DNA of 40,525 bases, from the sequence record OZ035736.1. One strand, 5' to 3'. Origin of the DNA: Przondovirus NAN33P6. This document shows, piece after piece, positions 1-8,804 of this stretch. The notes beneath the pieces are model-generated. The model was not told where the DNA came from, ran no database searches, and was given only the letters and a program-made list of their open reading frames with translations. Numbering within the stretch: the first letter of the stretch is position 1; every line of letters starts with the position of its first letter. Both the position numbers and the translations under genes were made by a program.

Positions 1-29
1 TGAGCGCCCAGACTTATAAGGAGTAACAT

Positions 30-287
30 ATGGACCTGATTAAGTTCCTCGAAATGTTAGACACTGAGATGGCTCAGCAGATGCTCATGGACCTGAAGAA
101 TCCCGAGAAGCGAACCCCTCAGCTGTACAACGCCATTGGTAAACTACTGGAGCGGCACAAGTTCCAAATCTCTAAGCTGACCCCTGACGTTAACATCTTG
201 GGCGGTCTTGCTGAAGGTCTGGAGGCTTACAACTCCAAGGTGGGTGCTGATGGTCTGACAGATGACGATAAGTTCACCCTACAGTGA
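30..287 (+). CDS. 18: Terminase small subunit (DNA maturase A), T7 gp18 homolog
   Basis: 85 aa; FLEMLDT.MAQ.ML.DL...PQLYNAI.KLL.RHKFQI.KL.PDV.ILGGLA...GLTDDD..TLQ matches recalled T7 gp18 nearly end to end; AAGGAG RBS at 20-25. Confidence 0.9.
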   Translation: MDLIKFLEMLDTEMAQQMLMDLKNPEKRTPQLYNAIGKLLERHKFQISKLTPDVNILGGLAEGLEAYNSKVGADGLTDDDKFTLQ

Positions 288-335
288 TATACTCAAGGTA
301 CTACTATATGTAGTGCCTTTATGGATGTCATTGCA
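288..335 (+). promoter_or_regulatory. Putative RNase III processing hairpin (R18.5-like)
   Basis: ACTCAAGGTA...TACTATATGTAGTG...CCTTTATGGA; same motif family recurs at about 9470, 10005 and 16590 and resembles the recalled T7 R1.1 substrate (ACUCAAGGUCA...GGCCUUUAUGAUUG). Confidence 0.55.
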
Positions 336-383
336 CTACGCTAGGCGTTCCTACGTGAAATCTGAGAAACAACGGGAGGCATT

Positions 384-830
384 ATGCTGGAGTTCACAAA
401 GAGAATCGTCCCGTATCTTGTGGCTATCATGGTGTTTGCCTTCGGGTGGCACTTGGGGACACAGTCTACGGACGCCAAATGGAAGGAGGAAGTACAGAAT
501 GAGTACGTTAAGAAGCAAACGGCTAGAGCTGAAACTCAGAAAGCGATTGACGCAGTATCGGATAAGTACCAAGCAGACCTTGAGGGGCTGGAGGGCAGCA
601 CTGATAGGATTATTGCTGATTTGCGTAGCGACAATAAGCGGCTGCGCGTCAAAGTCAAACCTACCAGTGTCGCCGCAGGACCAGACGGTCGATGCCTCAT
701 TGATGGTTCCGTCGAACTACACGAAGCAACTGCTCGAAGTCTTATCGCAATAACCCAGAAGGCTGACCTCAAAGAGAAGGCCCTACAGGACACAATTCGT
801 AAGCTGCAAGGGAAAGGAGGTGAACATTGA
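384..830 (+). CDS. 18.5: i-spanin (Rz-like inner membrane spanin), T7 gp18.5 homolog
   Basis: 148 aa; MLEF.....GWHLG..S.DAKWK.EV.NEYVK...[13 protein letters not shown] matches recalled T7 gp18.5; N-terminal TM segment. Confidence 0.9.
499..753 (+). CDS. 18.7: o-spanin (Rz1-like outer membrane lipoprotein), T7 gp18.7 homolog, embedded in +1 frame of gene 18.5
   Basis: Internal ATG at 499 of ORF 262..753; MSTLR...[19 protein letters not shown] matches recalled T7 gp18.7 including lipobox-like ISGC. Confidence 0.85.
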   Translation: MSTLRSKRLELKLRKRLTQYRISTKQTLRGWRAALIGLLLICVATISGCASKSNLPVSPQDQTVDASLMVPSNYTKQLLEVLSQ

Positions 831-2584
831 GTAACTCTCAGCAAGCCAAGAACGCCTTAATCATTGCGCAACTGAAGGGTGACTTTGTCGCCTTTCTCTT
901 CGTGCTCTGGAAGGCCCTGAACCTGCCGGAACCAACCAAGTGTCAAATCGACATGGCCAAGTGTCTGGCAGACCCAAAGAACAAGAAGTTTATCCTTCAG
1001 GCTTTCCGTGGTATCGGGAAGTCGTTCATCACGTGTGCGTTCGTAGTGTGGACCCTATGGCGTGACCCTCAGTTAAAGATACTGATTGTCTCAGCCTCGA
1101 AGGAACGTGCGGACGCTAACTCCATCTTCATCAAGAACATCATCGACTTGTTGCCTTTCCTGAGTGAGCTTAAGCCTCGCCCCGGTCAGCGTGACTCCGT
1201 GATTAGCTTTGATGTAGGCCCTGCCAAGCCTGACCACAGCCCGTCAGTTAAGTCTGTGGGTATTACGGGTCAGCTTACTGGTAGCCGTGCCGATATCATC
1301 ATTGCGGATGACGTGGAGATTCCCGGTAACTCTGCAACCCAAGGTGCCAGAGAGAAACTCTGGACGTTGGTTCAGGAGTTCGCCGCACTGTTGAAACCTC
1401 TGCCGACTAGTCGTGTTATCTATCTGGGTACCCCTCAGACCGAGATGACGCTCTACAAGGAACTTGAGGACAACCGTGGTTACTCCACAATCATCTGGCC
1501 TGCGCAGTATCCTCGCTCCAAAGAGGAAGACCTGTACTATGGCGACCGACTGGCTCCTATGCTCCGTAGTGAGTACGATGAGGACAAAGAGGGTCTCGGT
1601 AGTCAACCTACTGACCCGGTTCGATTTGACTCCATGGACCTTCAGGAACGTGAGGTGGAATACGGCAAGGCTGGCTATACACTTCAGTTCATGCTCAACC
1701 CGAACCTCAGTGACGCCGAGAAGTATCCTCTACGCCTCCGTGACGCTATCGTGTGCGGCCTACAGATGGACAAGGCCCCAATGCACTACCAGTGGCTGCC
1801 GAACCGTCAGAACCGCAATGAGGAGCTTCCTAACGTGGGCATGAAGGGTGACGAGATTTACTCCTTCCATACAGCCTCCAGTAACACTGGTGCGTATCAG
1901 GGTAAGATTCTGGTCATTGACCCCAGTGGTCGCGGTAAGGATGAGACCGGCTGGTGCGTACTGTACACCCTCAACGGTTACATCTACCTGATGGATGCTG
2001 GCGGTACTCGTGGGTACGAAGAGAAGTCCCTTGAGTTCCTCGCTAAGAAGGCTAAACAGTGGCAGGTACAGACTGTGGTCTTCGAGAGCAACTTCGGTGA
2101 CGGCATGTTCGGTAACGTGTTCCAGCCTGTGCTCCTGAAGCATCACCCGGCGCAACTCGAAGAGATTCGTGCTCGTGGTATGAAAGAGGTCCGCATTTGC
2201 GATACCCTTGAGCCTGTGCTGGCAAGTCACCGCTTGGTCATCCGGGATGAGGTCATCCGACAGGACTACCAGACGGCACGTGATGCAGACGGTAAGCACG
2301 CTCTGAAGTACAGCCTGTTCTACCAGATGACCCGTATGAGCCGTGAGAAGGGCGCTGTGGCACACGACGACCGCCTTGATGCGTTAGCATTGGGTGTCGA
2401 GTTCCTACGCTCTACGATGCAGCAGGACGCTGTTAAGATAGAGGCTGAGGTACTTCAGGAGTTCTTGGAGCATCACATGGAGAAGCCCCTGAGTAACATC
2501 TCCCAGTTCAGGGCCACCAGTAGCAACGGCGTGGACATCCGATGGGAAGACGATGGGGATGACACTATGTTCATCGCATGGTGA
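827..2584 (+). CDS. 19: Terminase large subunit (DNA maturase B), T7 gp19 homolog
   Basis: 585 aa; [35 protein letters not shown]...[18 protein letters not shown] nearly identical over long runs to recalled T7 gp19; apparent TTG start at 827 overlapping the gene 18.5 stop (TTGA), GGAGG at 816-820. Confidence 0.95.
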
Positions 2585-2664
2585 TTATGCAGGGATTGTG
2601 CATAAGGATTCATTAGGCCACGGAAGGCCACTTCAGGAAAACTTCAGGCATAACAGACACTTGG

Positions 2665-2687
2665 AATTAGGTAGCACTATAGGGAGA
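2665..2687 (+). promoter_or_regulatory. Phage RNAP promoter (phiOR-like, right end)
   Basis: AATTAGGTAGCACTATAGGGAGA; exact consensus 23-mer, +1 G at 2682. Confidence 0.85.
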
Positions 2688-2828
2688 GACCCCTAAAGAC
2701 TTACTATAAGAACACTTAAAGTTTCATTCATATAGTTATGCACTACAGGTCTCCTCTATGAGAGAGGGTAGTAATGATAATATCACCCTCTAACTATAAG
2801 ACACTAAGAGCTAACACAAGGAGGACCT

Positions 2829-2978
2829 ATGCGCTTACTGTTAACCTTACTGCGCCATAGGACTACTTGGCGGTTTCTGCTGGTACTTGCTGGTGCCCTT
2901 GGGGCTTCACTGGTTACTCAGCAACAACTCGGTGGACTGGAGACTCTCGTGTGCTCTCTACTCACTTGTAGCGATTAG
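2829..2978 (+). CDS. 19.5: T7 gp19.5 homolog (small protein of unknown function)
   Basis: 49 aa, below the ORF-track cutoff; MRLLLTLLRHRTTWRFLLVLAGALGASLVTQQQLGGLETLVCSLLTCSD resembles recalled T7 gp19.5 (ends ...SILTCSD); GGAGG RBS upstream. Confidence 0.75.
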   Translation: MRLLLTLLRHRTTWRFLLVLAGALGASLVTQQQLGGLETLVCSLLTCSD

Positions 2979-3059
2979 GGTCTTCCTGACGCGCTAGGGA
3001 TTCCGTAGTGATGCTTATCAGCATACACCACTCCATCCCTCTACAGTCAATACTTAAAG

Positions 3060-3440
3060 TTAACCTTAGGTGATTCACTGGGTCTACCTACGGGTCTATG
3101 CACTGACCTGAGGACTACCTGAGGTTACCTTTAAGAATTTTACATAAAGTTCTGAGTGTACATCTCACAGTTTAAACTTTTGGTTATCCCCCCGGTACCC
3201 TCCAGTTCACCCAAAGTAACCATAGGCCACCCCTAAACCTTCGGTTTAACCTTAGGTGGGACTGATGGGAAACCTGAGGTGATACTATATGTTGTGGTGA
3301 GTGGGACCTTGGGTGACTATATGTTGATGTCACTGTGTCCCTATCTGTTGGGCCTCTTTAAGTAACAACCTGAGGTTAGACCTGAGGCATCCACCTTAGG
3401 ACATCCTGAGGTAATACCTGAGACCATATACCTTAGGTTA
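3060..3440 (+). repeat. Array of about 10-12 CCT(G/T)AGG heptamers flanking the presumed genome end and terminal repeat
   Basis: CCTTAGG at 3064, 3250, 3394, 3431; CCTGAGG at 3107, 3118, 3273, 3369, 3381, 3405; variants CCTTCGG 3238, CCTTGGG 3307; positional analogue of the T7 CCTAAAG end repeats. Confidence 0.65.
3163..3350 (+). repeat. Probable direct terminal repeat (collapsed to one copy), with left genome end near 3163
   Basis: TCTCACAG at 3163-3170 resembles the T7 left-end start TCTCACAGTGTACGG; GTGTCCCTATCTGTT at about 3335-3350 resembles the T7 motif near the inner end of its 160-bp repeat; boundaries are estimates. Confidence 0.45.
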
Positions 3441-3506
3441 ACCATGGGCCATCCGGTGAGTCATTACTATAAGGCTATTGGGAGACCATTGTCAAATCAT
3501 CCAACC

Positions 3507-3529
3507 AATTAGGTAGCACTATAGGGAGA
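3507..3529 (+). promoter_or_regulatory. Phage RNAP promoter (phiOL-like, left end)
   Basis: AATTAGGTAGCACTATAGGGAGA exact consensus. Confidence 0.85.
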
Positions 3530-3608
3530 CACTTAAAGTGTTACTATGAGACCATCACCAATAAGAACACTATCACTATAGGTCTAACTAAAAGTTTAAC
3601 TTTGAGTG

Positions 3609-3637
3609 TTGACATTCAGATTCCGTTATGAGACATT
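3609..3637 (+). promoter_or_regulatory. Candidate host sigma70 early promoter (A1-like)
   Basis: TTGACA (3609-3614), 17-bp spacer, GACATT; same relative position as T7 A1 (TTGACT...GATACT); weak -10. Confidence 0.4.
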
Positions 3638-3743
3638 AGCAACCGTTGAGACAGACACAACGTTATCAACCACTAGCACACTTCGAGTTACTAGCTGGAT
3701 ACGGAAGGGTCTCAAGTAGCCATCAACCGGCATACGAAAATGG

Positions 3744-3772
3744 TTGACTCAACGATGCACAAGTAGTAACGT
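3744..3772 (+). promoter_or_regulatory. Candidate host sigma70 early promoter (A2-like)
   Basis: TTGACT (3744-3749), 17-bp spacer, TAACGT. Confidence 0.4.
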
Positions 3773-3861
3773 AGTAAGCAAGCAGTAACTAGCAGCACCG
3801 CTCTTTAACAATATGGATTAGTCAAAGCTGATATGTACACCATGACAATAGTGTTTAACTA

Positions 3862-3916
3862 GTGGCTACATTCGGGTCTCTGGCAAGGTACGTCCTGTCA
3901 CCCTGGGAGTAGCCAC
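3862..3916 (+). promoter_or_regulatory. Structured leader upstream of gene 0.3 (possible R0.3-type processing site)
   Basis: 8-bp inverted repeat GTGGCTAC (3862-3869) and GTAGCCAC (3909-3916) enclosing about 40 nt, just upstream of the gene 0.3 RBS. Confidence 0.3.
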
Positions 3917-3947
3917 GCTGATAACCACTAATTGAAGGATATACATC

Positions 3948-4415
3948 ATGATTTACACTAAAGAGCCAGCTAATAAAGTATTCGTATTCGTTACCGCTTA
4001 TCGTGGTCATGAGTCGCTCGAGGTTAACGAGAAGATGCTCAAGGGTCTCATTCGCACCATTAAGACCTATCCGGGTGCATATGGCAACATTCGTGATGAG
4101 CACGTGCAAGGCTGCTTTAAGGAAGATGGCATGCCTGAGGCAACACAAGAACGCACGCTCAAGGTTGAATGTACTGAGAAGCAAGCGGCAGAGCTGACGT
4201 GGTTGGCCTGTAAGACCTACTCGCAGGACGCTGTTCTGGTGGTGAACTCACAGACCCATACAGCCGCGCTATGGTCTATCGAGGATGTAGGCGAGTACCC
4301 ACAGGTCTACCCACGCTTGAAAGAGGTGTCCTTAGGTGGCACGCTGCAACAAGTGGACGCACCAAAGGGTGAATGCTATTCAATCATCGACGGGCAATAT
4401 TGGGAGGTGGTGTAA
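3948..4415 (+). CDS. 0.3: S-adenosylmethionine lyase (T3-type SAMase, anti-restriction), T3 gp0.3-like
   Basis: 155 aa; M.YTKEPA..VF......R.....EVN........RT....PG.YG......GC..E...ATQERT..V.C..KQAA.L...AC...QDAVLV.NSQTHTA.L resembles recalled T3 SAMase; unlike the T7 Ocr DNA mimic. Confidence 0.75.
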   Translation: MIYTKEPANKVFVFVTAYRGHESLEVNEKMLKGLIRTIKTYPGAYGNIRDEHVQGCFKEDGMPEATQERTLKVECTEKQAAELTWLACKTYSQDAVLVVNSQTHTAALWSIEDVGEYPQVYPRLKEVSLGGTLQQVDAPKGECYSIIDGQYWEVV

Positions 4416-4597
4416 TGGTCAAATATGGTCTCACTCAGCAGGAAATACACGAGTACCGCAGCGCCTTTAAGACGGCTTGCGAGTGCACTGCTGGCATACC
4501 TGAAGCAAAATCCGACTGGTTCTGCTACTACATGGCCCAAATGGCCCAGACCTATCGCACACGTAAGGTAATGTATGATAACCCTGTTCGTAATTAG
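4415..4597 (+). CDS. Small early protein, possibly T7 gp0.4-like
   Basis: 60 aa from the ATG overlapping the 0.3 stop (TAATG), GGAGGTGG RBS; MVKYGLTQQ...YMAQMAQ has weak resemblance to recalled T7 gp0.4 (VQYGLTAQ...AMAQ). Confidence 0.45.
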   Translation: MVKYGLTQQEIHEYRSAFKTACECTAGIPEAKSDWFCYYMAQMAQTYRTRKVMYDNPVRN

Positions 4598-4772
4598 TGT
4601 GTACGCCCTGATTGTCCTGTACTTTGTGCGGGACTTTCGTAAGGGTCTCAAGGTGCACAAAGCATCTTTCAGTTACATGAAGTGGGGCTTATTGCCTCGC
4701 TTTACTGTACGGCTACCTAATGGCCGCTTTAAGGCTAACAAAGTGGGGGTATTTTATGTTGCAACGCACTGA
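4575..4772 (+). CDS. Small hydrophobic early protein (hypothetical)
   Basis: 65 aa; N-terminal hydrophobic stretch ITLFVISVYALIVLYFV; in the gene 0.5/0.6 position; start uncertain. Confidence 0.35.
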   Translation: MITLFVISVYALIVLYFVRDFRKGLKVHKASFSYMKWGLLPRFTVRLPNGRFKANKVGVFYVATH

Positions 4773-4950
4773 GATACTGAAGGCACTATCTGAGCGGTAC
4801 CTTGCACCCGAGGGTGTACGAGTCCGGGTAATGGACTACACGGGAAACCCGCTGGCACCTGAGAAGGTAGCTTATCGCATCACCTTTACTTCGCTTGGAA
4901 GAAAGCACAGGGTAACATACTGGCCTAACACTGTAGGCTTCCAATCATAG
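4756..4950 (+). CDS. Small early protein (hypothetical, gene 0.6 position)
   Basis: 64 aa from internal ATG MLQRTEILKAL of ORF 4720..4950; precedes gene 0.7. Confidence 0.35.
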   Translation: MLQRTEILKALSERYLAPEGVRVRVMDYTGNPLAPEKVAYRITFTSLGRKHRVTYWPNTVGFQS

Positions 4951-4988
4951 CAATATCACCAATTCAATCTATACAAGGAAACAACCTA

Positions 4989-6002
4989 ATGAACTACACC
5001 GATATGCAAGCACGCTTAGACGCCATCCGTAACCTGCCAATCTGTGAACTCGACAAGCGCCAGCCGCTGCTGGTAGCACTCATCGCTGACATTGTGAACT
5101 GTGAGACGTCCGACGGTGACGATACGGACAGCGGTTGGGGTCTGGAATGTCAGGACTATTGGCAAACCCTGAAGATTAAGGCCAAGGACGCTGGGTTTAG
5201 CCTGCTGGGCAACGGTCACTTCAGCGCAGCGTTTAAGCACGAGCTGCTGCCGGGTAGGGTCATTAAGGTTGGCTTTAAGAAAGAGGACTCAGGGGCCGCC
5301 TACGTGGCTTTCTGCCGGATGAACCAAGGCCGGGTAGGGATTCCTAACGTCTATCACGTAGCGCGTCACGCTGGATGCTATACGGTGGTTCTGGATGAGC
5401 TGGAACCATGCAAGAGGCGCGACAACGAGACGCACGAGCATTACGCGGACCTAGCGAATTACTTTGTGGAGAACTCTGGTGCAGAGCTGGGAGATGTTGA
5501 CGGTGCAGAGAAGGAATTACCCTTCGTCGAGACGTGTCAAATGATTCACAAGTTCTTCTACGGGATTGCGTCTTTTGATATGCACAGCGGAAACATCATG
5601 TTCACCAAAGACGGCAAGCCAGTGATTACCGACCCGGTGTCATTCTCAGCGGACCGGGACCGTGAGCCTTTCTCACTGGAACCTGAGGAACTGCTCGCAG
5701 AGATTGAGCAGATAGCACACAATAAGATGATTGAACGTTGTAAGCGCAACAAGGCTAAGCGCGACCCGAACGGGGAGCTGCGCATCGCACGCCGTAAGGC
5801 AAACAAGGAACGTCGGGCACGTCGTAAGGCGCACGCTCGGTGGCGTAAGGAGCAGGAAAAGCGTGATGCCGAACTCTTAAAGTTTGACCTTGCGAAAGTC
5901 GAGGAGCGGGTACTGGCATGGCAGGTGGGACCCGGCCTAGCGATACAGCAAGGAAAGCCACTACCAATCGACAACTACCTTCAGGGTAGACTCATGGGCT
6001 AA
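4989..6002 (+). CDS. 0.7: Ser/Thr protein kinase with host transcription shut-off region, T7 gp0.7 homolog
   Basis: 337 aa; LPICELDKRQ, AGF.LLGNGHFSAA, RVIKVGFKKEDSGAAY.AFCRM.QGR.GIPNVY.V.RHAGCYTVVLD, FDMHSGNIMF, ITDPVSFS match recalled T7 gp0.7; basic K/R-rich C-terminus. Confidence 0.9.
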   Translation: MNYTDMQARLDAIRNLPICELDKRQPLLVALIADIVNCETSDGDDTDSGWGLECQDYWQTLKIKAKDAGFSLLGNGHFSAAFKHELLPGRVIKVGFKKEDSGAAYVAFCRMNQGRVGIPNVYHVARHAGCYTVVLDELEPCKRRDNETHEHYADLANYFVENSGAELGDVDGAEKELPFVETCQMIHKFFYGIASFDMHSGNIMFTKDGKPVITDPVSFSADRDREPFSLEPEELLAEIEQIAHNKMIERCKRNKAKRDPNGELRIARRKANKERRARRKAHARWRKEQEKRDAELLKFDLAKVEERVLAWQVGPGLAIQQGKPLPIDNYLQGRLMG

Positions 6003-6073
6003 CAAGGTGTATCTTAGGTGTCTCCAAACGGTGAGGCACCAATAGATAAACTTTATTCACAAAGAGGCACACA

Positions 6074-8794
6074 ATGAACGCATTAAACATTGCACGTAAT
6101 GACTTCTCAGAGATTGAACTAGCAGCTATCCCGTACAATATCCTCAGTGAGCACTATGGGGACAAGCTGGCACGTGAGCAGTTAGCACTGGAGCACGAGG
6201 CGTACGAGCTGGGTGAGCAGCGTTTCCTGAAGATGTTAGAACGTCAGGTGAAAGCTGGCGAGTTCGCTGACAACGTGGCCGCTAAACCGCTGGTCCTAAC
6301 GTTGCACCCGCAGCTGACCAAGCGTATTGACGACTGGAAGGAGGAGCAAGCAAACGCTCGCGGTAAGAAACCTCGCGCATACTACCCGATTAAGCACGGT
6401 GTGGCTTCTGAGTTAGCTGTTAGCATGGGCGCTGAGGTGCTCAAAGAGAAGCGCGGAGTGTCCAGTGAGGCAATCGCACTGCTAACCATCAAGGTCGTCT
6501 TAGGGACGCTCACAGACGCCTCAAAGGCCACAATCCAGCAGGTGTCCTCACAGTTAGGCAAGGCCCTTGAGGATGAGACCCGCTTCGGTCGTATCCGTGA
6601 GCAGGAAGCCGCATACTTCAAGAAGAACGTAGCGGACCAGCTGGACAAGCGAGTAGGCCACGTGTACAAGAAGGCTTTCATGCAGGTAGTCGAGGCCGAT
6701 ATGATATCCAAAGGGATGCTGGGCGGCGACAACTGGGCGAGCTGGAAAACTGACGAGCAGATGCACGTAGGGACCAAGCTGCTGGAGCTGCTTATCGAGG
6801 GGACTGGTCTGGTGGAAATGACCAAGAACAAGATGGCCGATGGCTCCGACGATGTGACCAGTATGCAGATGGTCCAGCTGGCTCCGGCGTTTGTGGAACT
6901 CCTGAGCAAACGAGCGGGCGCACTCGCGGGTATCAGTCCGATGCACCAGCCGTGCGTAGTCCCTCCGAAACCTTGGGTGGAGACTGTAGGCGGTGGCTAC
7001 TGGTCAGTCGGTCGTCGCCCTCTGGCACTGGTGCGTACCCACTCCAAGAAGGCGCTGCGCCGCTACGCAGACGTGCACATGCCCGAGGTATACAAGGCGG
7101 TCAACCTCGCGCAAAACACGCCGTGGAAGGTGAACAAGAAGGTGCTGGCGGTAGTCAACGAGATTGTCAACTGGAAGCACTGCCCGGTTGCTGACGTCCC
7201 AGCGATTGAACGTGAAGAGCTACCACCACGCCCGGACGATATTGACACCAACGAGGTGGCACGTAAGGCATGGCGCAAGGAGGCCGCAGCGGTCTACCGT
7301 AAGGACAAGGCCCGCCAGTCTCGCCGTTTGTCAATGGAGTTCATGGTCGCACAGGCCAACAAGTTCGCTAACCACAAGGCCATCTGGTTTCCTTACAACA
7401 TGGACTGGCGCGGACGTGTGTACGCTGTGAGCATGTTCAACCCGCAGGGTAACGACATGACCAAGGGTATGCTGACGCTGGCTAAGGGCAAGCCAATCGG
7501 TCTCGATGGGTTCTACTGGCTGAAGATTCATGGTGCAAACTGTGCAGGCGTCGACAAGGTTCCCTTCCCTGAGCGCATCAAGTTCATCGAAGAGAACGAG
7601 GGCAACATTCTGGCGAGTGCAGCTGACCCACTGAATAACACTTGGTGGACACAGCAGGATTCACCATTCTGTTTCTTAGCGTTTTGCTTCGAGTACGCAG
7701 GCGTTAAGCATCACGGCCTGAATTACAACTGCTCGCTGCCGCTGGCGTTCGATGGGTCATGCTCTGGGATTCAACACTTCAGCGCTATGCTCCGCGATTC
7801 CATCGGTGGTCGTGCGGTAAACCTGCTGCCATCTGATACCGTGCAGGATATCTACAAGATTGTGGCTGATAAGGTCAACGAGGTGCTCCACCAGCACGCT
7901 GTCAACGGGTCTCAGACGGTGGTCGAGCAGATTGCCGACAAGGAGACTGGCGAGTTCCGCGAGAAGGTAACGCTGGGTGAGTCCGTACTGGCTGCGCAGT
8001 GGTTGCAATACGGCGTGACCCGCAAGGTGACTAAGCGTTCGGTCATGACGTTGGCGTACGGTTCCAAAGAGTTCGGCTTCCGCCAGCAAGTTCTTGAGGA
8101 TACCATTCAGCCAGCTATTGACAACGGCGAGGGCTTGATGTTTACGCACCCTAACCAAGCGGCTGGCTACATGGCTAAGCTGATTTGGGACGCTGTGACC
8201 GTGACCGTAGTGGCCGCTGTCGAGGCGATGAACTGGCTGAAGTCTGCCGCTAAACTGCTGGCCGCTGAAGTCAAGGACAAGAAGACCAAAGAGGTGCTCC
8301 GTAAGCGCTGCGCAATCCACTGGGTAACACCAGACGGCTTCCCGGTGTGGCAGGAATACCACAAGCGTGACCAAGCGCGCCTGAAGCTGACGTTTCTGGG
8401 TCAGGCCAACGTGTTCATGACGTACAACAAAGGGGATACCAAAGAGATTGACGCACATAAGCAGGAGTCAGGAATCGCTCCTAACTTTGTGCACTCACAG
8501 GATGGTAGTCACCTGCGCATGACCGTAGTGCACGCCAACGAGGTCTACGGGATTGACTCCTTCGCGCTCATTCATGACTCCTTCGGGACCATTCCGGCAG
8601 ACGCTGGGAATCTCTTTAAGGCAGTCCGTGAGACGATGGTCAAGACCTACGAGGATAACGATGTAATCGCTGACTTTTATGACCAGTTCGCTGACCAGCT
8701 GCATGAGTCTCAACTGGACAAAATGCCTGCGGTCCCGGCCAAAGGTGACCTGAATCTGCGCGATATCTTAGAGTCTGACTTCGCGTTCGCCTAA
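6074..8794 (+). CDS. 1: Single-subunit DNA-dependent RNA polymerase, T7 gp1 family
   Basis: 906 aa; extensive near-identity to recalled T7 RNAP (AIWFPYNMDWRGRVYAVSMFNPQGNDMTKG, LPLAFDGSCSGIQHFSAMLRD, HDSFGT, C-terminal FAFA); specificity-loop region differs (RLKLTFLGQANVFMTYN versus T7 RLNLMFLGQFRLQPTIN). Confidence 0.97.
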   Translation: MNALNIARNDFSEIELAAIPYNILSEHYGDKLAREQLALEHEAYELGEQRFLKMLERQVKAGEFADNVAAKPLVLTLHPQLTKRIDDWKEEQANARGKKPRAYYPIKHGVASELAVSMGAEVLKEKRGVSSEAIALLTIKVVLGTLTDASKATIQQVSSQLGKALEDETRFGRIREQEAAYFKKNVADQLDKRVGHVYKKAFMQVVEADMISKGMLGGDNWASWKTDEQMHVGTKLLELLIEGTGLVEMTKNKMADGSDDVTSMQMVQLAPAFVELLSKRAGALAGISPMHQPCVVPPKPWVETVGGGYWSVGRRPLALVRTHSKKALRRYADVHMPEVYKAVNLAQNTPWKVNKKVLAVVNEIVNWKHCPVADVPAIEREELPPRPDDIDTNEVARKAWRKEAAAVYRKDKARQSRRLSMEFMVAQANKFANHKAIWFPYNMDWRGRVYAVSMFNPQGNDMTKGMLTLAKGKPIGLDGFYWLKIHGANCAGVDKVPFPERIKFIEENEGNILASAADPLNNTWWTQQDSPFCFLAFCFEYAGVKHHGLNYNCSLPLAFDGSCSGIQHFSAMLRDSIGGRAVNLLPSDTVQDIYKIVADKVNEVLHQHAVNGSQTVVEQIADKETGEFREKVTLGESVLAAQWLQYGVTRKVTKRSVMTLAYGSKEFGFRQQVLEDTIQPAIDNGEGLMFTHPNQAAGYMAKLIWDAVTVTVVAAVEAMNWLKSAAKLLAAEVKDKKTKEVLRKRCAIHWVTPDGFPVWQEYHKRDQARLKLTFLGQANVFMTYNKGDTKEIDAHKQESGIAPNFVHSQDGSHLRMTVVHANEVYGIDSFALIHDSFGTIPADAGNLFKAVRETMVKTYEDNDVIADFYDQFADQLHESQLDKMPAVPAKGDLNLRDILESDFAFA

Positions 8795-8804
8795 GGTCTA
8801 AGGC

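What the first reader, a model, noticed from the sequence alone, without database searches (positions are those of the whole stretch)
3948..4415. Gene 0.3 is a T3-type SAM lyase rather than a T7 Ocr DNA mimic
The first early gene encodes a 155-aa protein resembling T3 SAMase (conserved QTHTA region and N-terminal TKEPA) with no resemblance to acidic Ocr. SAM-degrading enzymes counter SAM-dependent restriction-modification and related defences and perturb host methionine/SAM metabolism. This gene may set which host defence systems the phage can overcome.
Basis: partly seen in the sequence, partly recalled or inferred. Interest (0 to 1): 0.45.

Follow-up and report, generated by a model that had tools for sequence, protein, structure and literature searches.

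The report
Klebsiella T7-like phage SAM lyase gene
The first early gene of this Klebsiella T7-like phage encodes a clear homologue of the phage T3 enzyme that destroys the cell's methyl donor SAM; this is correct but ordinary, because the gene is routinely annotated in this phage genus.

Summary
The observation and the interpretation both hold. ORF 3948-4415 (+) encodes 155 aa. It matches Pfam PF23780 (S-AdoMet lyase) at E=4.5e-37 and the solved T3 SAMase (7OCK/8BB1) at E=4.9e-24. It is 37% identical to T3 gp0.3 over the full length (E=2e-33), and a confident model (pLDDT 89.5) superposes on 8BB1_E with TM 0.82/0.86. It has no similarity to T7 Ocr (E=46), and no Ocr homologue lies elsewhere in the window.

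The residues known to matter for SAM cleavage are kept: G55, aromatic 57 (Phe here, Tyr in T3), E68, Q93 and D94. The protein probably both cleaves SAM and inhibits MetK, but neither activity is shown for it.

The window is a circularly permuted Przondovirus genome. The gene is the first ORF after the phiOL-type promoter, upstream of the kinase and RNA polymerase genes.

It is not new. The protein is 99.4% identical to one in Klebsiella phage 2044-307w. Many records already call it S-adenosyl-L-methionine hydrolase, and a 2023 paper calls it a marker of the przondovirus genome start. One useful correction: the frequent label 'SAM-dependent methyltransferase' is wrong.

The parts
3948..4415 (+). 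Gene 0.3 homologue: SAM lyase (SAMase) CDS, 155 aa, stop codon included
   Evidence: ORF. PF23780 E=4.5e-37. T3 SAMase 7OCK/8BB1 E=4.9e-24, and E=1.5e-49 with a family profile. 37% identity to T3 gp0.3. Model TM 0.82/0.86 to 8BB1_E.
3948..3974 (+). Codons 1-9 (MIYTKEPAN): N-terminal tail, equivalent to the MetK-contacting tail of T3 SAMase
   Evidence: M1, I2, T4 and N9 are invariant in 36 homologues. In T3, residues M1-K5, A8 and N9 contact MetK. The tail has low confidence in the monomer model, with pLDDT <50 for residues 1-3.
4110..4118 (+). Codons 55-57 (G-C-F): equivalent of Svi3-3 G56/Y58 and T3 G55/Y57, which pack against the ribose and the sulfonium of SAM
   Evidence: Alignment. G is present in 35 of 36 sequences; position 57 is F in 24 and Y in 12. 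The role of these residues comes from the Svi3-3 structure paper.
4149..4151 (+). Codon E68: equivalent of T3 E68 / Svi3-3 E69, the key substrate-orienting glutamate
   Evidence: Invariant in 36 of 36 sequences. The effects of mutating it in T3 and Svi3-3 are reported.
4224..4229 (+). Codons Q93-D94: equivalent of T3 Q94-D95 / Svi3-3 Q104-E105
   Evidence: Q is present in 35 of 36 sequences and D in 36 of 36. The T3 E68Q/Q94A double mutant is catalytically dead.
4248..4265 (+). Codons 101-106 (SQTHTA): beta4-beta5 loop, equivalent of T3 Q103/T104/H105/T106, which hydrogen-bond MetK
   Evidence: Q102, T103 and H104 are invariant in 36 of 36 sequences. Their role in T3 is described.
3934..3939 (+). 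Shine-Dalgarno-like GAAGGA, 8 nt upstream of the ATG
   Evidence: Read directly from the sequence.
3862..3916 (+). Imperfect hairpin 31 nt upstream of the start codon; by position, the counterpart of the T3 RNase III site R0.3 (inferred)
   Evidence: RNA fold gives -31.2 kcal/mol with z=-2.0. T3 R0.3 is annotated 26 nt upstream of gene 0.3. The differences in phage TUN1 keep or improve pairing.
3507..3529 (+). Phage RNA polymerase promoter (AATTAGGTAGCACTATAGGGAGA), the phiOL equivalent upstream of the early region
   Evidence: Exact match to the promoter consensus, which has 14 matches at up to 3 mismatches in the window, 12 of them credible + strand sites (0.18 expected by chance). T3 and T7 have phiOL in the same place.
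4415..4597 (+). Downstream 60-aa ORF whose ATG overlaps the SAM lyase stop (TAATG); probably translationally coupled, function unknown
   Evidence: Sequence. A CDS is annotated at the same place in TUN1. No Pfam or NCBIfam hit.

Best explanation
ORF 3948-4415 is the gene 0.3 orthologue of a Klebsiella-infecting Przondovirus (T7-like, Studiervirinae). It encodes a T3-type S-adenosylmethionine lyase.

Inferred mechanism, by homology to T3 gp0.3 and Svi3-3:
- The gene enters the cell first and is transcribed by the host RNA polymerase as part of the class I (early) region.
- The protein binds SAM through G55, the aromatic F57, E68, Q93 and D94. It holds SAM in a conformation in which the substrate's own carboxylate attacks its gamma-carbon. 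The products are 5'-methylthioadenosine and homoserine lactone, so the reaction is a lyase reaction, not a hydrolysis.
- Through its N-terminal tail (M1, I2, T4, K5, N9) and the SQTHTA loop (Q102, T103, H104), it probably also binds the host SAM synthase MetK. That would block resynthesis of SAM and stabilise the phage protein.
- The resulting fall in SAM would disable SAM-dependent defences (type I restriction-modification, BREX) before the rest of the genome enters.

Shown here: homology, predicted fold, conserved residues and gene position. Inferred: enzymatic activity, MetK binding and the anti-defence phenotype.
For: Sequence and profile:
- Pfam PF23780 S-AdoMet_lyase, E=4.5e-37, 127 bits against a 28-bit cutoff, covering profile positions 1-132 of 133.
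- phmmer against the PDB finds only T3 SAMase (7OCK/8BB1), E=4.9e-24 over residues 1-153. A 35-sequence family profile gives E=1.5e-49.
- BLASTP against T3 gp0.3: 37% identity, 57% positives, E=2e-33.

Structure:
- The AlphaFold2 model has pLDDT 89.5 and pTM 0.83, with two helices and a beta-barrel-like set of strands.
- Foldseek ranks 8BB1_E (T3 SAM lyase) first at E=8e-14 with TM 0.82/0.86, then the 7OCK chains, then Svi3-3 (6ZM9) at E=5e-3.

Residues:
- E68, D94, Q102, T103, H104, T4, N9 and I2 are invariant in 36 homologues. G55 and Q93 are each present in 35 of 36. Position 57 is always aromatic.
- These are the positions shown experimentally to matter in T3 and Svi3-3.

Context:
- The gene order is phiOL-type promoter, hairpin, gene 0.3, small ORFs, kinase, RNA polymerase, as in T3.
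- 470 phage records encode a homologue, and many annotate it as S-adenosyl-L-methionine hydrolase.
- The literature treats it as the marker of the przondovirus genome start.
Against: - No activity has been measured for this protein or, as far as the held literature shows, for any przondovirus orthologue.
- Identity to the characterised enzyme is only 37%.
- The tyrosine that stacks on the sulfonium in Svi3-3 and T3 is Phe here. The Svi3-3 Y58F mutant lost five-fold activity and had a destabilised trimer. However, Phe is the majority state in this clade (24 of 36) and can still make a cation-pi contact.
- There is a 7-residue insertion (about 118-124) relative to T3.
- MetK binding in Klebsiella is untested. 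No Klebsiella MetK was retrieved, and the nearest Enterobacteriaceae MetKs differ from E. coli at one or two of the specificity positions (V211; T214 in some).
- The strict sigma-70 promoter scan found no + strand promoter between 2600 and 3947. Host-polymerase transcription is therefore inferred from synteny only. TTGACA at 3609 and TTGACT at 3744 are weak candidates.
Confidence: 0.9

Rival explanations
1. It is a SAM-dependent methyltransferase, as PHROG 2226 and many GenBank records label it. On this reading it uses SAM to methylate a substrate rather than destroying SAM.
For: The best PHROG hit, phrog_2226 (E=1.7e-48), carries the description 'SAM-dependent methyltransferase'. Many related phage records repeat that name.
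Against: No methyltransferase family appears in the Pfam scan; the only significant family is S-AdoMet lyase. The predicted fold matches the T3 SAM lyase beta-barrel, and the top Foldseek hits include no Rossmann-type methyltransferase. T3 gp0.3, a member of the same family, is experimentally a lyase. The label is best explained as an error propagated from 'SAM' in the original name.
Confidence: 0.01
2. It is a homologue whose main or only role is to bind and inhibit the host SAM synthase MetK, with weak or no SAM cleavage.
For: The longest identical stretches shared with T3 are the MetK-contact motifs (TKEPAN, SQTHTA), and these are strictly invariant across the family. A catalytically dead T3 mutant still partly blocks BREX through MetK. 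The Tyr-to-Phe change at position 57 corresponds to a Svi3-3 mutation that lowers activity five-fold.
Against: E68, Q93 and D94 are as conserved as the MetK motifs, which would not be expected if catalysis were dispensable. Phe and Tyr alternate freely at position 57 across the family, and T3-like members carry Tyr. The DFT analysis found the Tyr proton relay unnecessary for the reaction.
Confidence: 0.06
3. It acts on a SAM-derived signalling molecule (a SAM-AMP lyase, anti-CRISPR type III-B) rather than on SAM itself.
For: Phage-encoded relatives of the Svi3-3-type lyases degrade SAM-AMP. A SAM-AMP lyase structure (9GAD_F) appears in the Foldseek list.
Against: The 9GAD match is weak (E=0.71, probability 0.35, TM 0.36), far below the match to T3 SAM lyase. 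The SAM-AMP lyases are PII-like trimers related to Svi3-3, not to the T3-type barrel. The protein has the T3-specific MetK motifs. From general knowledge, not tested here, CorA-type III-B CRISPR systems are not typical of Klebsiella.
Confidence: 0.02

Closest known systems
Bacteriophage T3 gp0.3 SAM lyase (SAMase; PDB 7OCK, 8BB1; Pfam PF23780)
   Same: Both are the first class I gene, and the lengths are similar (155 vs 152 aa). They are 37% identical over the full length. The predicted fold is the same (TM 0.82-0.86). Both have E68, Q94/D95 (Q93/D94 here), G55 and an identical N-terminal M-I-x-T-K-E-P-A-N. The SQTHTA loop, which contacts MetK in T3, is also identical.
   Different: Position 57 is Phe instead of Tyr, and E67 is Gln (a non-essential position in T3). 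There is a 7-residue insertion near residues 118-124. The protein is mildly acidic (pI 5.1) where T3 gp0.3 is basic (pI 8.2). The next gene overlaps the stop codon, where T3 has an RNase III site R0.5. The host is inferred to be Klebsiella rather than E. coli.
Orthologues in Klebsiella przondoviruses (for example phage 2044-307w, TUN1, KP32-like phages)
   Same: 99.4% amino-acid identity to the 2044-307w protein and 87-97% to dozens of others. The genomic position is the same, and many records annotate it as S-adenosyl-L-methionine hydrolase.
   Different: Essentially nothing. The gene shares at most about 95% nucleotide identity with any deposited phage, so this is another isolate or species of the same genus.
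Svi3-3 SAM lyase (PDB 6ZM9 and related entries)
   Same: The same reaction is inferred, and the ligand-binding residues are equivalent (Gly, aromatic, Glu, Gln, acidic). The fold similarity is detectable but weak: Foldseek E=5e-3, probability 1.0.
   Different: Sequence similarity is not detectable by phmmer or by profile search against the PDB, and TM is only 0.38. Svi3-3 is a trimer with active sites between subunits and lacks the MetK-binding residues. T3-type enzymes form a monomeric barrel when bound to MetK.
T7 gp0.3 Ocr (DNA mimic)
   Same: Same genomic slot (first early gene), and the same defences are targeted in the model phages: type I R-M and BREX.
   Different: Unrelated in sequence (E=46) and composition, and different in mechanism: protein mimicry of DNA versus cofactor destruction.

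Membership tests
T3-type SAM lyase (Pfam PF23780, S-AdoMet_lyase) | Significant full-length sequence match to the family model and to T3 gp0.3 | tested here: met
   PF23780 E=4.5e-37, 127 bits against a 28-bit cutoff, profile positions 1-132 of 133. T3 gp0.3 BLASTP E=2e-33, 37% identity. Family profile against 7OCK E=1.5e-49.
T3-type SAM lyase (Pfam PF23780, S-AdoMet_lyase) | Fold: beta-barrel of antiparallel strands with two outside helices, as in 8BB1/7OCK | tested here: met
   AF2 model with pLDDT 89.5, two main helices (24-40 plus a short continuation at 42-45, and 77-90) and 8 DSSP strand segments. Foldseek top hit 8BB1_E with TM 0.82/0.86, E=8e-14. This is a predicted structure, not a solved one.
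T3-type SAM lyase (Pfam PF23780, S-AdoMet_lyase) | Substrate-binding residues: Gly55, aromatic 57, Glu68, Gln94, Asp95 (T3 numbering) | tested here: met
   G55, F57, E68, Q93 and D94 are present and conserved in 35-36 of 36 homologues. Position 57 is F in 24 and Y in 12. Tyr-to-Phe is a conservative deviation from T3.
T3-type SAM lyase (Pfam PF23780, S-AdoMet_lyase) | MetK-contact residues T4, N9, Q103, T104, H105, strictly conserved among homologues at least 30% identical to T3 (Andriianov et al.) | tested here: met
   T4, N9, Q102, T103 and H104 are present and invariant in the 36-sequence alignment.
T3-type SAM lyase (Pfam PF23780, S-AdoMet_lyase) | Catalysis: SAM converted to 5'-methylthioadenosine plus homoserine lactone | not testable with these tools
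   Needs an enzyme assay. No published assay of a przondovirus orthologue was found.
T3-type SAM lyase (Pfam PF23780, S-AdoMet_lyase) | Physical binding to the host MetK | tested here: inconclusive
   The phage-side residues are conserved. The nearest Enterobacteriaceae MetKs (97% identical to E. coli) keep D132, V133 and I178 but have V211 and A or T at 214.
T3-type SAM lyase (Pfam PF23780, S-AdoMet_lyase) | First gene of the class I (early) region of a T7-like genome | tested here: met
   First ORF after the phiOL-type promoter (3507-3529). It is followed by kinase and RNA polymerase genes, with no credible phage promoter until 8812. Same order as T3. First CDS in TUN1.
Ocr (T7 gp0.3 DNA mimic) | Sequence similarity to T7 Ocr | tested here: not met
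   BLASTP E=46. tblastn of Ocr against the whole window gives a best E of 0.44, on the opposite strand at 377-487.
Ocr (T7 gp0.3 DNA mimic) | Extreme acidity mimicking the DNA backbone (T7 Ocr: pI about 4, 34 Asp+Glu in 117 aa) | tested here: not met
   The window protein has pI 5.11, 22 Asp+Glu and 16 Lys+Arg in 155 aa. Ocr has pI 4.05 with 34 and 6.
SAM-dependent methyltransferase (label of PHROG 2226) | Methyltransferase domain or Rossmann-like SAM-binding fold | tested here: not met
   No methyltransferase family in Pfam at E<=1. The fold hits are SAM lyases, not methyltransferases.
Svi3-3-type SAM lyase / SAM-AMP lyase (PII-like trimers) | Close structural match to 6ZM9 or 9GAD | tested here: not met
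   6ZM9 TM 0.38 (E=5e-3); 9GAD_F TM 0.36 (E=0.71). No sequence or profile hit. The relationship is distant only.

The most novel reading that the evidence does not exclude
The przondovirus clade of T3-type SAM lyases has Phe57 instead of Tyr, a 7-residue insertion at about 118-124, and an acidic rather than basic net charge. It could differ functionally from T3 gp0.3, for example in MetK specificity tuned to Klebsiella, a different oligomeric state, or a shifted balance between SAM cleavage and MetK inhibition. This could contribute to which Klebsiella defence repertoires these therapeutic-candidate phages can overcome. Broken alleles occur naturally in relatives (internal deletion, frameshift fusions), which hints that the gene is under fluctuating selection.
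Probability: 0.12. Interest if true: 0.4.

Novelty: already known. Interest (0 to 1): 0.1.

Why it matters
The gene tells us how this phage probably deals with SAM-dependent host defences (type I restriction-modification, BREX): by cofactor depletion, as in T3, rather than by DNA mimicry, as in T7. That is useful when choosing or engineering Klebsiella phages for therapy. It also justifies correcting the widespread 'SAM-dependent methyltransferase' label. It does not open a new question. The family, its structure, its dual mechanism and its presence in przondoviruses are all published or deposited already.

Tried and rejected
1. Ocr identity: rejected by BLASTP, composition and a whole-window tblastn.
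2. Methyltransferase label from PHROGs: rejected by Pfam and fold.
3. NCBIfam scan: no model for this protein, which is uninformative.
4. Rfam scan of 2500-6200: only a sub-threshold chance snoRNA hit, so there is no curated RNA family for the upstream hairpin.
5. Strict sigma-70 promoter and terminator scan of 1-5200: no + strand promoter upstream of the gene at the tool's threshold and no terminators. The early promoters therefore could not be located. TTGACA at 3609 and TTGACT at 3744 have only 3-of-6 -10 hexamers at 17-nt spacing.
The proxy check on other Enterobacteriaceae was inconclusive. The published 'Trp26' does not match E. coli MetK numbering, where position 26 is Ala.
It was rerun without that row.
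8. Literature search for an experimental study of a Klebsiella-phage SAM lyase: none found.

Full report
**Observation**

The window contains an ATG-to-TAA open reading frame at exactly 3948..4415 on the + strand, encoding 155 amino acids. A GAAGGA Shine-Dalgarno-like sequence lies at 3934-3939, 8 nt before the ATG. Both are letter-for-letter identical to phage T3 gp0.3.

**What the window is**

Megablast of the gene and of the first 8 kb finds hundreds of Klebsiella T7-like phages of the genus Przondovirus at about 93% nucleotide identity. The window begins with the spanin and large terminase genes (827-2584). A non-coding genome-end region follows (2584-3947). The early region comes next, so the window is a circularly permuted copy of a whole genome of about 40.5 kb.

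The phage-polymerase promoter consensus TAGCACTATAGGGAGA has 14 matches in the window at up to 3 mismatches (0.18 expected by chance); two of them, each with 3 mismatches, look like chance matches. One site, at 2672, corresponds to phiOR after the terminase gene. Another, at 3514, corresponds to phiOL. No credible site follows until 8812, just after the RNA polymerase gene.

The stretch 3530-8800 is therefore the class I (early) region. The ORF at 3948 is its first gene, followed by small ORFs, the gp0.7-type kinase gene (4989-6002) and the RNA polymerase gene (6074-8794). This is the order annotated in T3 and T7. In the related phage TUN1 the homologue is the first annotated CDS.

**Identity of the protein**

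- Pfam gives one significant family, PF23780 S-AdoMet_lyase. The match has E=4.5e-37 and 127 bits against a curated cutoff of 28, and covers nearly the whole profile.
- A search of all PDB sequences finds only the T3 SAMase of entries 7OCK and 8BB1, at E=4.9e-24. A profile built from 35 homologues gives E=1.5e-49.
- Direct BLASTP against T3 gp0.3 gives 37% identity and 57% positives over the full length, E=2e-33.
- An AlphaFold2 model built on the family alignment is confident (mean pLDDT 89.5, pTM 0.83). Its first residues are poorly defined.
- Foldseek ranks the T3 SAM lyase chain 8BB1_E first (E=8e-14, TM 0.82/0.86). The 7OCK chains follow, then the distantly related Svi3-3 lyase 6ZM9 (E=5e-3, TM 0.38).

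**Not Ocr**

BLASTP against T7 gp0.3 gives E=46. The protein has pI 5.1 with 22 acidic and 16 basic residues. Ocr has pI 4.05 with 34 acidic and 6 basic residues in 117 aa. tblastn of Ocr against the whole window finds nothing (best E=0.44).

**Functional residues**

The Svi3-3 structure paper identifies Gly56, Tyr58, Glu69, Gln104 and Glu105 as the SAM-binding residues. It shows that the reaction is a unimolecular lyase reaction giving MTA and homoserine lactone. It maps Glu69 to T3 Glu68. The T3/BREX paper shows that E68Q and Q94A each cut T3 activity five-fold and that the double mutant is dead.

In the window protein the equivalents are G55, F57, E68, Q93 and D94. In an alignment of 36 full-length homologues plus T3:
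- E68 and D94 are invariant.
- G55 and Q93 are each present in 35 of 36 sequences.
- Position 57 is always aromatic: Phe in 24 and Tyr in 12.

The Tyr-to-Phe difference from T3 is thus a normal family polymorphism rather than a lesion. One caution is that the Svi3-3 Y58F mutant lost five-fold activity.

In the 2.8 A T3 SAMase-MetK complex, two parts of the enzyme contact the host SAM synthase. One is the N-terminal tail (M1, I2, F3, T4, K5, A8, N9). The other is the beta4-beta5 loop (Q103, T104, T106). T4, N9, Q103, T104 and H105 are strictly conserved among homologues at least 30% identical to T3.

My alignment reproduces this. M1, I2, T4, N9, Q102, T103 and H104 (window numbering) are invariant. 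Catalysis is supported by the other residues above.

The low-confidence N-terminal tail in the monomer model fits a segment that becomes ordered only on a partner. That is an inference.

The nearest Enterobacteriaceae MetKs (97% identical to E. coli) keep D132, V133 and I178 but have V211 and A or T at 214. This test is inconclusive.

**Mechanism (inferred from T3)**

The gene is expressed first. The enzyme cleaves SAM and probably also blocks its resynthesis by binding MetK. [quoted passage not shown] None of this has been measured for this protein, and I found no paper that assays a przondovirus orthologue.

**Rivals**

- The label 'SAM-dependent methyltransferase', carried by PHROG 2226 and by many GenBank records, is contradicted by family and fold. 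It is best read as a propagated naming error.
- A MetK-inhibitor-only reading is unlikely, because the catalytic residues are as conserved as the MetK motifs.
- A SAM-AMP lyase (anti-CRISPR) reading is unlikely, because the match to 9GAD is weak (TM 0.36, E=0.71) and that group is related to Svi3-3-type trimers.

**Novelty**

The protein is 99.4% identical to that of Klebsiella phage 2044-307w and 87-97% identical to dozens of others. In all, 470 phage records encode a homologue, and many name it S-adenosyl-L-methionine hydrolase. [quoted passage not shown]

The finding is therefore correct but already known. Its practical value is limited to annotation hygiene (lyase, not hydrolase or methyltransferase) and to predicting the phage's anti-defence strategy.

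**Seen in passing**

- An imperfect hairpin at 3862-3916, 31 nt upstream of the ATG, folds at -31.2 kcal/mol (z=-2.0). By position it matches the T3 RNase III site R0.3. The three differences in TUN1 keep or improve pairing.
- The next ORF (60 aa, 4415-4597) starts with an ATG overlapping the stop codon (TAATG). It has no family match.
- Several relatives carry broken alleles. One has an internal deletion removing residues about 41-90 (P0016). Others have frameshift fusions to the downstream ORF (P0013, P0029). Some phage records give only partial matches (K74_evo6, PCCM_KpP253). This suggests the gene is dispensable under some conditions.
- The strict sigma-70 scan did not find the expected early promoters.

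Noticed in passing
window 3948-4415; PHROG 2226; GenBank records: The family is widely mislabelled 'SAM-dependent methyltransferase' (the PHROG 2226 description, copied into many Klebsiella phage records). Pfam and fold show it is a SAM lyase. 'Hydrolase', the older name, is also mechanistically outdated.
   Followed up: yes
window 3862-3916 (+): An imperfect hairpin (-31.2 kcal/mol, z=-2.0) lies 31 nt upstream of the gene. This is the position where T3 has the RNase III site R0.3. The differences in phage TUN1 convert G-U pairs to A-U, or G-C to G-U, and so preserve pairing. No Rfam family matches.
   Followed up: partly
window 4415-4597 (+): A 60-aa ORF whose ATG overlaps the SAM lyase stop codon (TAATG), preceded by GGGAGGTGGTG. 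It is annotated as hypothetical in relatives and has no Pfam or NCBIfam hit. It is probably translationally coupled to gene 0.3.
   Followed up: partly
relatives P0016, P0013, P0029, P0050; phage records PQ569708.1 and PQ738176.1: Naturally broken or rearranged alleles of the SAM lyase gene exist among close relatives. P0016 has an internal deletion of residues about 41-90 that removes G55/F57/E68. P0013 and P0029 are frameshift fusions to the downstream ORF. P0050 has a chimeric N-terminus. An experimentally evolved phage (K74_evo6) retains only residues 99-155. The gene appears dispensable under some conditions.
   Followed up: partly
window 3530-3947 (+): The expected host-polymerase early promoters (A1-A3 equivalents) were not found by the strict consensus scan. 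Only weak candidates exist: TTGACA at 3609-3614 with GACATT 17 nt downstream, and TTGACT at 3744-3749 with TAACGT 17 nt downstream. Both are conserved in TUN1, but the whole region is 90% identical, so this is uninformative.
   Followed up: partly
window 2667-2690 and 3507-3529, region 2976-3500: Two identical phage promoters (AATTAGGTAGCACTATAGGGAGA) flank the genome-end region, which carries arrays of short CCTGAGG/CCTTAGG repeats. The assembly is circularly permuted, so the direct terminal repeat appears only once and the physical ends were not located. The TUN1 record start aligns near window position 3270.
   Followed up: no
window 4035-4037 (codon M30): T3 has an in-frame internal start (gene 0.3B, at Met28). 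The window protein has Met30 with GAGG 11 nt upstream, so a shorter internal product lacking the MetK-binding tail is conceivable but untested.
   Followed up: no
literature (PMC8406200) versus L004 (E. coli metK): Five of the six MetK specificity residues named in the mBio paper match E. coli MetK numbering (D132, V133, I178, I211, A214). 'Trp26' does not, because position 26 is Ala. That residue number could not be used.
   Followed up: no
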